64,000 nt of DNA from Escherichia coli (GTDB lineage Bacteria > Pseudomonadota > Gammaproteobacteria > Enterobacterales > Enterobacteriaceae), in the NCBI RefSeq assembly GCF_022846255.1, contig NZ_AP025682.1; one strand, written 5' to 3'. Position numbers: made by a program. Below are positions 30,501-36,500 of the stretch, piece after piece. Every line of letters starts with the position of its first letter. Position 1 is the stretch's first letter.

Positions 30501-33500
30501 CCTGAAAGTTAATGATGTTTTAAGCTCTGTGAGCGAATTAATGCTTTCGCTCATAATCAGATCTAAAACGGTAATAACTTACAGATGGTATTTATCAGGC
30601 ATGCTGTAGCAGAATGAATACGACGGGTTATTAACGATACGCAGCATTATGCAGAAAGAAATGGATTATCTGATGGTATTAACTAAAGAGATGAGATAAA
30701 CGAGGAGCGAATAAAATACAGAATCAATAAACATCACGAAATACTGTAAAATACGAGCTAAAACCCCACTAGCTGGAGGTTAAGAAACGCATTACGACCA
30801 GTCACATCATAAACTACAAACTTGCTCTCAGTGAGTCTGCAAAAACGTGTACAAGGCCAACACATATCTGTAATTATACACTCTCATTCAATCTGTTAAA
30901 AACAACTCATGTTCAAGATATGAACGTTAACGGGTACACGGTACCAGAATAAAATATACCATGGATGGATAATTTTCATTTTGTTTAACATACAAGATAA
31001 TCAGAAACGAACAAATATAATCAGAAATTCACTCTGTCAATACCATTGTTTATTCTGTTCTGTTAATTGTTACGGAATCATGGATACCTTATCAAAGAAT
31101 AAATACTCAGTTAATCAGTAATGACAAAAGAATTGATGTTCACCAGAACAGTTAGAAAACATCAGATAAACAATCATCGTTAAGTCAATACAGTTCATGA
31201 TGGATAAGATTAAAATCAATTACTGTTTTACTGAAGACTGAAAACAGATAGATATCAGTAATAGCGCAGTAGAGAATAACTTATCTGAACATCATATGAG
31301 TTACAGTAATTATGATTGAATGAAAGGGAAGTGGATATTGTGATAATGGTGACAAAAAAATATTAGAGAAGGACATGAGTGAATATAATTAGCTGAGGGT
31401 AAGAGTAATGGAATGTGTAGAGATAGAGATTATAAAAAAGAGAGCGAGTAAAGACAGGAAGTAAATAACAATAGAGATTGTATGAAAAAGGGAGTGAGTA
31501 TAATAATAGTAATAAACCTAAATTAAAATTATTCATGTTTTATGTATGGAAATAATTTTAGAAAATGAATCTGTTTGAAAACTCTTTCTCAGAGATTAAC
31601 CTATCAGATGCTCAACGAACTCAATTAATTGGATGTATTAATCGCGACTTGATCTGACACTGAACCTTGAAAGGTTGAGAGTTACCGGTTTTGATATGGG
31701 TGTCGAATCCTTATACAAAACACGAGGTAACTATCATGCTTCATACTACCAATCCCGTTATCAAACACAAAGCCGGTTTGCTCAATCTGGCTGAAGAACT
31801 CAGCAACGTATCAAAAGCCTGTAAAATCATGGGCGTTTCGCGTGATACGTTTTATCGTTACCACGAACTGGCCGATGAAAGCGGTGTGGATGCGCTGATT
31901 AATCGTAGTCGCCGGCTCCTAACCTTAAGAACCGTACCGATGAGGCAACTGAACAGGCTGTTGTTGATTACGCCGTCGCTTTCCCGGCACACGGTCAGCA
32001 CCGGACCAGCAACGAGCTGCGTAAACAGGGCGTTTTTATCTCCGGCAGTGGTGTCCGTTCTGCCTAGTTACGCCATAACCTTGAGAATTTCAAAAAACGT
32101 CTGAAAGCACTGGAAGAAAAAGTAGCCCGTGATGGCATTGAGCTAACTGACAGCCAGATCGCAGCACTGGAGCGTAAAGCCAGTGATGACGAGGTCTGTG
32201 GCGAAATCGAAACGGCTCATCCGGGATATCTGGGTTCGCAGGACACGTTCTATGTAGGCAACCTGAAAGGTGTCGGGCGTATTTATCAGCAGACGTTCGT
32301 TGATACGTACTCGAAAGTGGCTCACTGTAAGCTTTACGTCATCAAAACACCGATTACCGCGGCTGACTTACCGAATGATCGTGTACTGCCGTTTTATGCG
32401 TCTCAGGGCCTGCCGATGCTGAGAATACTGACCGACAGAGGCACAGAGTACTGTGGCAAAGTAGAGCAGCATGATTATCAGCTTTATCTGGCAATAAACG
32501 ATATAGAACACACGAAAACAAAGGCGATGTCCCCGCAGACCAACGGCATCTGCGAGCGGTTCCATAAAACAATCCTGAACGAATTTTATCAGGTAACGTT
32601 CCGTAAAAACTGTACGGCGATCTTGATACATTACAGTCGGATCTTGATGAATGACTGGCTCACTATAATAATGAGCGAACCCATCAGGGAAAAATGTGCA
32701 ATGGGCGGACGCCAATGGAAACGTTACTTGATGGAAAGCGCATCTGGGCCGAGAAAAATTTAAGCCAGATGTAATCTGACAGATACCTGTATAAATAACC
32801 GGTAACTGTCAGATCAGGTCTGAGCTAATACAGCTTATTCATGCAAGGCCAGTGAACATAACTGACCTTGTTAATATATTTATTAAGTAAATAAAAACGC
32901 CTCAACCTCTTTTAAAGTCTTTTCTAAAAAACGCAAAGATTCTCTGCAATCATCATCGCTCATTTGAGCTATTTTTTTTGCTAACGGGATCTTTCGTTTT
33001 TTGGGTATAAGATACTCAATCTTAATTGAGTAGTCTTTGTCTTTTAAATTATCAGAGAGTTTCATTTCTGATTGAATTAACTCATTAACTTTTTCTGGTG
33101 TAAGCATTTCATTTAAATTAGCTCTTCTTTCAAGATTATTTTCTTCTAACTCTTCTTTCCATATTGCAATAGGATAATTGGACTCTAAAACCCCTGGTAT
33201 TTTATAACCATCTTTTTTTGCACTGAGAACATCTTGCGTTGGTTTTAATGTAAAGCATTTAACTGATTTACCAATATCTTGAATATCACCAAGTTCTTTT
33301 TTGACATTTATACCATCTTTATCTGCATCTACAATGCCAACACATTTATATTTGTTTTGATGATGTTTATGGATATGATAATAAGCTTTTAACATGTCAC
33401 AAACATAGTTTGTTCCTGCGCCAAAATCTTTTGTAATTACCTCAATGTCATTCATCCTTTCTGGTATGAAAACTTGTATCGCCCTTTCAATTATAATTTT

Positions 33501-36500
33501 ATCGCTGGCTCCCTCTACGTACATTACAGCTTTTTCATCACCAAGTTTACCAACGGATTCAATATTTTCTATACGAGATTTCACCTCATCAATATAGGGT
33601 GAAAGCAATTCCATAACCCCCATTCTGTCATCAAGCAGTGCATATTTATCATCACAAGAGGTTACATCAGTCAAGTCTTTCTCAATAAAAATGCAATTAA
33701 CAGATCTATCTTGTTTTGAGAGATTATAAAATGCAGGAGAATGTGTAGTTATAAATAATTGTGATACAGGATCTGGCACGAAAGTTTTAAACTGTATGGC
33801 AAGCTTGATTGATGACGTTAACTCAAGGTTATTTTCTGGCTCTTCATAGCCCCATATAAATGTATACGGTGGGTTGCCTCTTGCCTGTAGTGTTTTTGTT
33901 TTCTCAGCAATATATTTTAATATTAATGGAATGTGGCGAGCTTTGATTCCATCACCTCGTTCATTAAGAGATATTTTCATTTCATTTAGAAAGTCTAAAT
34001 TCCCAAATAAATTACTTAGATCTCTAGGAAGCGAAAGTTCAGAGTTAAAACCAAGAGATTCGTTAATCTCTTTTGTTAACTCATGAAGATTCTCAGCTAT
34101 ACTCTTCTCAAATGCTTTGCTTGAATCGCTAAAATTCTCATTGAACACAGCATTTACAACAAAATATATTTCACTCCTTAATTTTGCAATATACCCTTTA
34201 TCCTTAATTGCAGGAATATAAACATATTTTACATTATTAAGTAACTGTCTTATATTTGAACGAGCTGGAATTTCTTGCTTTTCTGTTCGTCGACCGCCTC
34301 TAGGGCCACTATATGATTTAATCCCAAGTATACTCTCATCATAAAATCCACCTGAGCGCCATGACTTCGTCCATTCAATTAAATTTCCATTTGTTGCATG
34401 ATAACTAGATGGAATATCAAGAAGTAATTTAATTTTTATCTCTCTAGCTTTTTTAGAATATTTTTTTGCCGCATAAATATTATAGTCAGTTGAAAAATCA
34501 AAAGATTCTCCTGGATTTGTTTGCGAATTAAAGAAGAGGTTTAAAGCTCTTAATATATTTGATTTACCAGCATCATTATTACCAACAATAATCTGTAGTC
34601 GCGCACTATCAATAACTATTTTCTGAATTGATCGAAAATTCGTGATTTCAATTCTTCGAATACTAACCGGCATAAAAACCTCATCGTAACGCCTGTTTAT
34701 ATTTATAGCTGATAAAATAACACAACCACAATGAAAGTGAATAGTGAATTGCCACAAGTTTAACAAACACCTCAAGATCATTTAAAATGACTTAAAGAGA
34801 GGCTCCCATGAGCAGTAAGCGTTAACTCGCAGAGTTTAAAATTAAAGCAGTCAAACAGATTGTTGAACATGGTTATTCTGTTTCCCTGCGTTGCAACACA
34901 TCTGTGTAAGTTCACTCTTTAGTGTACAAGCCATGAGCGTCAGTCGTTCCTGAAATAACACGACCATCGCGGTAACTGCCACTATAATGCGGTTACAGAA
35001 AGCTTTTTCCAGTTACTGAAGTCTGAACGGATAAAGAAAAAATCTTCAGCCCCCTGATCTCATCGTGTTATTCACAACAATCCACTCCTGAAATGGCCGT
35101 GAATACAATTTATCAAGGCTAGTGGTCACTTTTCCTATTATGATTAGTGAAAACATAAAGTGCGGAAACGAATGAAAATGCACTGTATTATTTAAAGACA
35201 TCATCCAACGCCCTTACCGTGGTATACACTCAGGCACCAGATGCTGTTTTACAGGGTTCACCTGCCATCCAGAAGACGCCCCGGCCCACGACTGCAACCA
35301 TAATTACGTTGCCCGGAACCGTCATGCTGCTTCGTCTCATACTTCACGAGATAACTGGCTCTGTTCTGGGCTTTCTGCATCGCTTCCACATCACCACGCT
35401 TGATCCAGAGAACAGCGGCTTCACCCGGCTTTTTGTCTGAAGCCTTCCTGGTTTCAGAACATCCACCCGACAAAGGCGTATCATCGGAAGAAGGGCGAGC
35501 ATCAGATGATGTCGGTTTACGGAAAGGCGTCCGCCTGGAAAAATGAACCAGTCCATTACCCTGCCAGGGCTCAAGATGCAGAGCGCTACACCATGCCAGT
35601 TGTATCAGCGTCGCCAGCGAAGAAGGAACGGTGAAATCCCCTGGCGAGCACCAGGTATCTTTGTTGAGCAGTAATATCACGTGATAATGTTTCCTGCCTT
35701 TTTCCTTGCCAAACTCCCGACACCAGAAATAACGCAGAGTGGTTGCACGCACACGCTTGTTGGCACGTCGTTTATGTCGCTGGTAAGCCTGAATTTTTGC
35801 TTTCAGGGATGCAAAAAAACGAGAAATCACCGCTGAATCTAAATCGGTATCCATGATGGTGGCAGGCATATACTCAGGGAAACGTAAATCCACCCGGATT
35901 AACGAGACGGCACGGTGTTGCGCCAGGGCACTGTTGAGAATACTTTCAAAACGGGATAACCAGTAAGCATTGTGTATTGGTTGATTCATGATGAGAGATC
36001 TCCGTTGATTTGGATTGACTTCACATCATTAATCACCGCGGTAAAACTTTACGGCATCCGGCATTGAGCAATGCTACAACTCTCTGATTAAGAGTGATTG
36101 AAACGGAACAAACCATCCCGGAACGAAAAGATAATTCTACACGCAGGGTAAAAACACTCAAGAACAGCGAATGGATTTAAAAACGACATGGACAACGAGA
36201 AAAGTCAGAAGGGAAAAGGATCCACAGAACATTCGAACAAAACACCAGAAACGCAACCAGAACGCTTCCTGGTAATGCAAATCAACAACAACCCCAAAAC
36301 CTACAGCTTAATCACACAACTCAATCACGGATGCGAATGACACGTTTAAAACCTGTTTACAGATAAACCCCGCCACAAGAACAAAAATCACCAACATCAG
36401 AATCGATTTTCTCATCCTGAAAAAGTTACGTTTCACTACGCACCATAAAAACGATTAACCATCGATAACGTAAACCTTATCTGAATCAAAAACACCAAAA

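What the first reader, a model, noticed from the sequence alone, without database searches (positions are those of the whole stretch)
32883..34673. Singleton OLD-family ATPase-TOPRIM nuclease bracketed by IS remnants
The protein has Walker A (GNNDAGKSN), a Walker B-like DEPE-type motif, an H-loop (LFITTHSP) and C-terminal Toprim motifs (VEGASD, DADKDG): the OLD / Gabija GajA / PARIS-like architecture. No UvrD-like helicase (GajB or class-2 OLD partner) is adjacent; an IS481 pseudogene lies downstream and an IS3 remnant upstream, so a partner may have been lost or this is a class-1 OLD. GC content is very low.
Basis: partly seen in the sequence, partly recalled or inferred. Interest (0 to 1): 0.7.

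Follow-up and report, generated by a model that had tools for sequence, protein, structure and literature searches.

The report
Stand-alone OLD-type ATPase-Toprim nuclease gene
This is an intact, horizontally acquired E. coli gene for a single-protein ATP-driven nuclease of the OLD anti-phage family; it is an untested branch of a known kind and never needed a partner gene.

The parts
32883..34673 (-). Complete coding sequence of the OLD-family ATPase-Toprim protein (596 aa plus stop). It is identical to cluster P0001; in RefSeq the gene at this position in the 98-99% identical SCU-176 locus is named 'ATP-dependent nuclease' (WP_001521654.1).
34679..34682 (-). Shine-Dalgarno GAGG, five bases upstream of the ATG at 34673.
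   Evidence: read directly from the sequence
33549..34673 (-). N-terminal ABC/SMC-type ATPase region (residues 1-375), including a helical insertion at about 159-261 where OLD proteins carry their dimerisation domain.
   Evidence: Pfam AAA_15, AAA_23, DUF2813 and SMC_N; Foldseek matches to GajA, Eco8 OLD, Thermus OLD, Rad50 and SMC heads; secondary structure
34557..34583 (-). Walker A / P-loop GNNDAGKSN (K37 and S38 invariant).
33933..33959 (-). Degenerate ABC-signature-like motif RGDGIKARH (R239, G240, D241, G242, K244, R246, H247 invariant).
   Evidence: assignment as the signature motif is inferred from its position
33831..33860 (-). Walker B and D-loop FIWGYEEPEN (E277, E278, P279, E280, N281 invariant).
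   Evidence: Thermus OLD likewise has Glu in place of the Walker B Asp (PMC7049728)
33735..33758 (-). H-loop LFITTHSP (H311, S312, P313 invariant).
32886..33548 (-). C-terminal region (residues 376-596): a Toprim core (about 380-495) followed by an all-helical subdomain of about 100 residues.
33501..33518 (-). Toprim motif 1, VEGASD (E387, G388, D391 invariant). HMMER aligns it to the GajA segment LLIEGPSEKILFEKVL.
33312..33329 (-). Toprim DxD motif DADKDG (G446, D449, D451 invariant).
33183..33185 (-). E497 (at least 90% conserved, in the xLE[STC] motif). Candidate second-metal ligand, by position equivalent to Bp OLD E508 / Thermus E480.
   Evidence: the equivalence is inferred from spacing (PMC6755086, PMC7049728), not from superposed coordinates
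32991..32993 (-). K561, invariant Lys in a helix of the C-terminal helical subdomain. Candidate equivalent of the catalytic K562 of Bp OLD.
   Evidence: inferred
31624..32842 (+). IS481-family pseudogene element (frameshifted transposase ORFs 31691-32104 and 32317-32763; 36-nt imperfect terminal inverted repeats). It abuts the 3' end of the module, 41 bp from the stop codon. It is not part of the system.
31383..35207 (.). Variable cargo segment of the island, made of the IS481 remnant plus the OLD gene. It is bounded by backbone sequence shared with islands that carry other cargo.

Best explanation
This is an intact single-gene member of the OLD family of ATPase-Toprim nucleases. It was acquired horizontally as a one-gene module and now sits in a variable defence-cargo slot of a tRNA-Phe-associated E. 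coli island. By gene context it is Class 1 (stand-alone). Its C-terminal region, a Toprim core plus a helical subdomain carrying an invariant lysine, looks more like the class 2 / retron Eco2 type. Proposed mechanism, by analogy with characterised OLD proteins: the ABC-type ATPase, probably dimerising through its helical insertion, binds and hydrolyses ATP to sense an infection cue or to license the nuclease. The Toprim site (E387/D449/D451 for metal A, D391/E497 for metal B, K561 for the transition state) then cuts nucleic acid by two-metal catalysis. This stops phage replication or kills the infected cell (abortive infection). Shown here: gene integrity, domain architecture, conservation of the catalytic residues, absence of a conserved partner, and mobile or defence-island context. 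Inferred: the anti-phage role, ATP control, dimerisation, assignment of residues to metal sites, and the substrate. DNA nicking as in Vc OLD/GajA, or tRNA/RNA cleavage as in P2 Old, AriB and Eco2, cannot be told apart from sequence.
Against: No member of this particular clade has been tested, and I found no paper naming it. No PADLOC or NCBIfam model covers the whole protein or reaches a curated cutoff. No Pfam Toprim model matches any of the 40 members. Similarity to P2 Old and YbjD is limited to the first 51-75 residues. The Toprim assignment rests on a predicted structure plus motif conservation, and the active-site geometry was not checked on coordinates. No convincing sigma-70 promoter was found upstream on the minus strand. 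Some E. coli alleles are truncated (IS1 insertion, frameshift) and the Phytobacter copy is truncated, so the gene is dispensable. For YbjD the Toprim domain was dispensable for the phenotype (PMC13261556), so nuclease-based defence is not guaranteed.
Confidence: 0.72

Rival explanations
1. Guard-type, PARIS-like or PrrC-like system. The protein is functionally a fused AriA-AriB analogue. It stays latent and fires when a phage anti-restriction protein disables type I restriction, then cleaves tRNA or other RNA rather than DNA.
For: The best PADLOC matches for the two halves are AriA (2.8e-22, N-terminal) and AriB (E 0.006, first Toprim motif). Ten of 68 loci place the gene among hsdM/hsdS/hsdR, nine of them on the same strand. 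This is the arrangement known for the anticodon nuclease PrrC in the prr locus (established knowledge) and for other embedded defences (PMC11411939). The closest Toprim fold, retron Eco2, is reported to act as an RNase (PMC12405507). P2 Old and AriB cleave tRNA (PMC12445682, PMC12409363).
Confidence: 0.15
2. Remnant of a two-gene Gabija-like (class 2) system whose UvrD-like helicase partner was destroyed or displaced by the IS481 insertion. The remaining gene would then be non-functional or only partly functional.
Against: 67 of 68 loci lack any helicase partner, and no neighbour cluster is shared. Homologs at 57-87% identity in Serratia, Aeromonas and Enterobacter are lone genes without an IS. 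Homology to the Phytobacter copy ends 45 bp past the stop codon. The family keeps invariant catalytic residues across Proteobacteria while standing alone. No PADLOC GajA model covers the full length.
Confidence: 0.04
3. Not an immune gene. It could be a housekeeping or element-maintenance ATPase-nuclease (DNA repair, island stability, or a cell-cycle role as for archaeal Cran1), or a decaying passenger gene.
For: The N-terminal ATPase also resembles RecF, SbcC, Rad50 and SMC. An archaeal OLD ATPase has a non-defence role (PMC12796447). Truncated alleles occur in E. coli and Phytobacter.
Against: The distribution is patchy (about 0.4% of complete E. coli genomes). GC is low. The gene sits in a swappable cargo slot next to known defence genes. 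It recurs with R-M and other defence genes. The window copy is intact with all catalytic residues.
Confidence: 0.07

Closest known systems
Class 1 OLD nucleases (P2 Old, Thermus scotoductus OLD 6P74, Vibrio cholerae Vc OLD, E. coli YbjD/OldB)
   Same: A single gene with no dedicated partner. N-terminal ABC ATPase with a Glu-type Walker B and an H-loop, plus a C-terminal Toprim with E...D and DxD motifs. Carried on mobile or defence elements.
Class 2 OLD / Gabija GajA (Burkholderia pseudomallei OLD C-terminal region 6NK8; Bacillus cereus GajA)
   Different: The defining UvrD/PcrA-like helicase gene is absent in the window and in 67 of 68 related loci. PADLOC GajA models match only partially. 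The C-terminal domain profile finds no PDB sequence.
Retron Eco2 (Ec67) RT-Toprim effector domain
   Different: There is no reverse transcriptase and no retron ncRNA here. The N-terminal module is an ABC ATPase. Sequence identity is about 12%.
PARIS (AriA ABC ATPase plus AriB DUF4435 Toprim; 'class 4 OLD', sometimes fused)
   Same: The same logic of an ATPase plus a Toprim nuclease. AriA and AriB are the top PADLOC names for the two halves.
PrrC / RloC and other genes embedded in type I R-M operons (for example TgvAB)
   Same: In about 15% of loci the gene is interleaved with hsdM, hsdS and hsdR on the same strand.
   Different: The nuclease domain is unrelated. Most family members, including the one in the window, are not next to type I R-M genes.

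Membership tests
OLD family (ATPase-Toprim nucleases) | N-terminal ABC-type ATPase with Walker A Lys, Walker B acidic residue and H-loop | tested here: met
   Pfam AAA_15, AAA_23, DUF2813 and SMC_N. K37, E277/E278 and H311 are invariant in 40 homologs. Fold matches to GajA, Eco8 OLD, Thermus OLD and Rad50.
OLD family (ATPase-Toprim nucleases) | C-terminal Toprim domain with a conserved Glu and a DxD motif | tested here: met
OLD family (ATPase-Toprim nucleases) | Dimerisation domain inserted in the ATPase | tested here: inconclusive
   Long helices at 159-261 lie in the expected position, but pLDDT is below 50 for residues 209-240. The oligomeric state was not modelled.
OLD family (ATPase-Toprim nucleases) | ATP hydrolysis and metal-dependent nuclease activity | not testable with these tools
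   Needs biochemistry.
Class 1 OLD | An isolated single gene with no helicase or retron partner | tested here: met
   Window and RefSeq annotation. No conserved neighbour in 68 loci. Lone gene in Serratia, Aeromonas and Enterobacter. The homology block covers one gene only.
Class 1 OLD | Shorter protein that lacks the class 2 C-terminal helical domain (as described for Thermus OLD) | tested here: not met
   The protein is 596 aa. The model has about 100 helical residues after the Toprim core. Alignment to the class 2 C-terminal region (154 residues) is longer than to Thermus OLD (127 residues). The literature uses this as a descriptive average, not a strict criterion.
Class 2 OLD / Gabija GajA | [quoted passage not shown] | tested here: not met
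   None in the window. Only 1 of 68 related loci has a UvrD-like gene nearby.
Class 2 OLD / Gabija GajA | Toprim plus helical domain that contributes a catalytic Lys | tested here: inconclusive
   The fold match to 6nk8 and the invariant K561 in a helix of the helical subdomain are consistent with this. Coordinates were not superposed.
Class 3 OLD (retron type I-B effector) | Adjacent reverse transcriptase and msr/msd ncRNA | tested here: not met
   No RT ORF within the cargo segment. No retron RNA in the Rfam scan of 30000-39000. The NCBIfam retron_eff_Eco8 model scores 39 bits against a cutoff of 250.
Class 4 OLD / PARIS (AriA-AriB or fused) | AriB-type DUF4435 Toprim domain | tested here: not met
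Class 4 OLD / PARIS (AriA-AriB or fused) | AriA-type ATPase over its full length | tested here: inconclusive
   PADLOC AriA gives 2.8e-22, but the best stretch covers residues 5-84 against 3-85 of a 373-position profile.

The most novel reading that the evidence does not exclude
This clade is a one-protein 'restriction guard'. It would be an ATPase-Toprim nuclease, often wired into type I R-M operons, that senses phage anti-restriction proteins or the loss of Hsd activity. It would respond by cutting tRNA or other RNA through a divergent Toprim module. That same module can be plugged onto other sensor domains: it also occurs fused to a response-regulator receiver domain in proteins of about 366 aa.
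Probability: 0.12. Interest if true: 0.6.

Novelty: new member of a known kind. Interest (0 to 1): 0.35.

Why it matters
Stand-alone OLD nucleases are the least understood branch of a widespread immune family. As far as the papers I read report, anti-phage effects have been shown for only three (P2 Old, Vc OLD, YbjD), and those differ in trigger and target. This clade combines a class 2-like C-terminal region with stand-alone genetics. The PADLOC v2 and NCBIfam models and the Pfam Toprim models tested here do not capture it over its full length, so genome surveys that depend on such models could overlook it. It offers a compact, testable case of whether the helicase partner is needed for that C-terminal architecture. 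Its recurrence inside type I R-M operons gives a concrete hypothesis about its trigger. For this window alone, it adds a second likely defence gene, beside a dGTPase, to a tRNA-Phe island.

Tried and rejected
1. Partner lost to IS481: rejected by the 68-locus neighbourhood clustering, the small-ORF clustering, the contexts of close orthologs, and the one-gene homology block.

2. Hidden retron: there is no RT ORF, and the Rfam scan gave only sub-threshold noise.

4. Sequence-level link of the C-terminal domain to any solved structure: none was found.

5. KAP-NTPase-Toprim fusion (P0050): this looked like a module swap, but no complete E. coli genome contains the junction. The two halves map to different places, so it is probably a chimeric 2-kb contig.

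6. Phage carriage: one weak hit among 50,697 phage records, and P2 Old was not retrieved.

7. Literature search for the protein accessions or for 'fused PARIS' terms: nothing found.

8. Sigma-70 promoter scan upstream of the gene: no site on the minus strand between 34674 and 35207, and the counts in the region are not above shuffled controls.

9. Direct comparison with Vc OLD: its sequence was not obtainable, so only the residue numbering could be compared.
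Full report
**Observation**

The minus-strand ORF at 32883-34673 encodes 596 residues. A longer ORF runs up to an ATG at 34781. However, all 40 homologs aligned start at the Met at 34673, and a GAGG ribosome-binding site sits five bases upstream of it. RefSeq annotates the same start in near-identical strains.

The Walker B motif reads FIWGYEEPEN, not DEPE. The gene has 32.0% GC against 46.4% for the window.

The protein is 100% identical to a cluster of 141 E. coli sequences (P0001). Its length matches the family, so it is not a truncated pseudogene. Truncated alleles do exist in other strains. 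One 538/566-aa form ends after NLNEMLT, and some strains carry an IS1 at this locus. A 567-aa form has an altered C-terminal end.

**What the protein is**

Pfam sees only the ATPase half: AAA_15, AAA_23, DUF2813 and SMC_N. It finds no Toprim family in this protein or in any of the 40 homologs. Only sub-threshold DUF3226 hits appear. PADLOC hits are partial: AriA 2.8e-22, GajA 1e-15 and Old 2e-13 are mostly N-terminal, and the longest, GajA model PDLC00081, spans residues 5-405. NCBIfam reaches no cutoff.

Sequence searches of the PDB find GajA and Thermus OLD. The GajA alignment runs into the first Toprim motif, pairing VMYVEGASDKIIIERA with VLLIEGPSEKILFEKV.

An AlphaFold model of the whole protein (pLDDT 79) matches GajA (8e-18), the retron Eco8 OLD protein (2e-14) and Thermus OLD (7e-14) over the full length.

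I modelled the C-terminal 225 residues separately (pLDDT 92.8, pTM 0.88).
- Foldseek found only retron Eco2 (1.8e-3).

The Toprim fold is therefore recovered, but the sequence is very divergent. A profile of this domain matches no PDB sequence. It matches only 364 of 1.84 billion cluster representatives, most of them about 600 aa.

**Catalytic residues**

The following are invariant across 41-87% identical homologs:
- ATPase: G31, N33, D34, G36, K37, S38, N39; the degenerate signature R239-G240-D241-G242; Y276-E277-E278-P279-E280-N281; and H311-S312-P313.
- Toprim: E387-G388-x-x-D391, G446, D449, D451 and K561. E497 is at least 90% conserved.

The E-x3-D ... DxD ... xE ... K spacing parallels the metal A, metal B and lysine scheme described for Bp OLD (E400/E404, D455/D457, T506/E508, K562), Thermus OLD and Eco2. 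K561 lies in a helix of an all-helical subdomain of about 100 residues that follows the Toprim core. Thermus OLD is reported to lack the corresponding class 2 helical domain. I could not superpose coordinates, so the residue equivalences are inferred.

**Is there a partner?**

I fetched 72 loci from GTDB genomes (28-89% identity) and analysed 68 of them. I called ORFs and clustered the neighbours.
- No cluster is shared next to the gene.
- A second clustering of ORFs of 30-200 aa within 900 bp found only pieces of the gene itself.
- 61 of the 74 ORFs or ORF fragments in the OLD-like cluster (68 loci) match the C-terminal domain profile; the strength of the match falls from strong to marginal in the most distant loci.
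- Only one locus (L035) has a UvrD/PcrA-like gene downstream.
- The recurrent neighbours are type I R-M subunits, in ten loci, nine of them on the same strand as the OLD gene.
- Other neighbours include a Dcm methylase, HNH, integrases, a type III R-M endonuclease, a DRT-like reverse transcriptase and Fic.

Homologs at 87%, 70% and 57% identity in Serratia, Aeromonas and Enterobacter are lone genes among unrelated genes. DNA homology between the window and the Phytobacter copy spans only 32838-34743. The family is therefore a one-gene module.

**The E. coli context**

The window carries tRNA-Phe at 3386-3461 and a CP4-like island backbone: AlpA-like HTH, YagK/YfjJ and inovirus Gp2 family genes, a GTPase, antirestriction, RadC/JAB and CbtA/CbeA genes.

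Compared with sister islands, homology breaks at 31382 and resumes at 35208. In those islands the slot holds a different IS481-family transposase, an nSTAND1 NTPase, an IS30 pseudogene and two hypothetical genes. The two IS481-family transposases share only 25-37% identity over the short stretches that align.

The window's IS481 pseudogene has inverted repeats at 31624-31659 and 32807-32842. It ends 41 bp from the stop codon. No IS3 remnant is annotated on the 5' side.

The whole locus is found in about 20 of 5426 complete E. coli genomes. The family is almost absent from phage records and rare on plasmids.

**Comparison with known systems**

The literature classifies OLD proteins by context:
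- Class 1: single gene.
- Class 2: with a UvrD-like helicase (Gabija).
- Class 3: in retrons.
- Class 4: PARIS, sometimes fused.

(PMC10568477; PMC12392090.)

This gene meets the class 1 criterion and fails the defining criteria of classes 2-4. It is nevertheless far from the characterised class 1 proteins. Profile comparison with P2 Old and YbjD aligns only residues 1-51 and 5-79. The residue numbering of Vc OLD does not fit. Structurally its C-terminal region is nearer to the class 2 / Eco2 type.

Characterised relatives act in different ways:
- Thermus OLD is a non-specific DNase.
- Vc OLD nicks DNA and blocks phage replication.
- P2 Old amputates tRNA anticodon stems after ATP hydrolysis.
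- AriB cuts tRNA-Lys.
- Eco2 is an RNase.
- The YbjD phenotype does not need its Toprim domain.

 The substrate here therefore cannot be called from sequence.

**Verdict**

The finding is real, and its main interpretation (a singleton OLD-family ATPase-Toprim nuclease) is right. The partner-loss alternative and the 'bracketed by IS remnants' description are not supported. This is a new, untested clade of a known kind. It is a good candidate for a defence assay but not a surprise.

The most interesting open reading is a link to type I restriction, as a guard of R-M like PrrC or PARIS. I rate that as possible but unproven.

Noticed in passing
window 23965-25218 (+): A dGTPase-type anti-phage defence gene (PADLOC dGTPase 1.3e-110; RefSeq name 'deoxyguanosinetriphosphate triphosphohydrolase family protein'). 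It is followed by a 208-aa ORF (25261-25887), probably a membrane protein judging from its sequence, that matches no PADLOC or PHROGs family. The island therefore carries at least two likely defence genes.
   Followed up: partly
window 31383-35207 against L077/L078 8901-18039: This is a swappable cargo slot between the YagK/YfjJ gene and the inovirus Gp2 family gene. Sister islands carry an nSTAND1 (Avs-like) NTPase, an IS30 pseudogene and two hypothetical genes here. Both cargo versions start with an IS481-family transposase on the same side and strand, yet the two transposases share only 25-37% identity over the short stretches that align. This may hint that IS481-type elements help deliver cargo to this slot.
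   Followed up: partly
P0208, P0221, P0245 and about 12 further cluster representatives (363-378 aa): The same divergent Toprim-plus-helical module occurs fused to an N-terminal response-regulator receiver domain (Pfam Response_reg 1e-4; PADLOC PDC-M60C 4e-20) in place of the ABC ATPase. P0256 (890 aa) carries it behind a much larger AriA/NsnB-like ATPase. The nuclease module is therefore combined with different control modules.
   Followed up: partly
L079 (P0050; 2078-nt E. coli draft contig): An apparent fusion of a KAP-family P-loop NTPase to the C-terminal 250 residues of this protein. No complete E. coli genome contains the junction. The second half is 100% identical to the normal OLD/IS481 locus, so this is probably a chimeric assembly.
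   Followed up: yes
E. coli alleles P0009, P0012, P0013; hits H10-H16; L002 (Phytobacter): Several strains carry disrupted copies. The protein ends after NLNEMLT in some, and some strains have an IS1 at this locus. A 567-aa form diverges near the C-terminus. The Phytobacter diazotrophicus copy (89% identity) gives only a 548-aa ORF that stops short of the C-terminal end. The gene is dispensable and is decaying in some lineages.
   Followed up: partly
L035 6596-10854 (PVC group MAG): This is the only one of 68 related loci where a bona fide family member (C-terminal domain E 1.7e-32) is followed, after a 132-aa ORF, by a UvrD/PcrA/HelD-like helicase gene. It is either a rare Gabija-like arrangement or a coincidence.
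   Followed up: partly
L005, L010, L022, L023, L040, L041, L042, L047, L050, L060: In these loci the family member is interleaved with hsdM/hsdS/hsdR genes, on the same strand in nine of the ten. This resembles how prrC and other defences are embedded in type I R-M operons.
   Followed up: partly
window 21069-23448 (-): This looks like an IS3-family element (orfA-like 23080-23448, orfB-like pieces 21069-21887) interrupted by an IS30-type transposase gene (21972-23123). It would be the nearest IS3-like sequence to the OLD gene, about 9.4 kb beyond the gene's 3' end. I identified it by eye from the translations and did not test it with a tool.
   Followed up: no
window 37504-38634 (-): A low-GC 376-aa ORF conserved in the island backbone of all compared strains (annotated as hypothetical). 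It has no PHROGs or PADLOC match. Function unknown.
   Followed up: partly
window 31568-31733 (-): A sub-threshold Rfam match to psRNA2 (34 bits against a gathering score of 65, E 2e-5). It overlaps the left end of the IS481 remnant and is probably IS-related sequence rather than an sRNA gene.
   Followed up: no
window 3386-3461 (+): The tRNA-Phe gene, the likely integration site of the island that carries the whole region.
   Followed up: no
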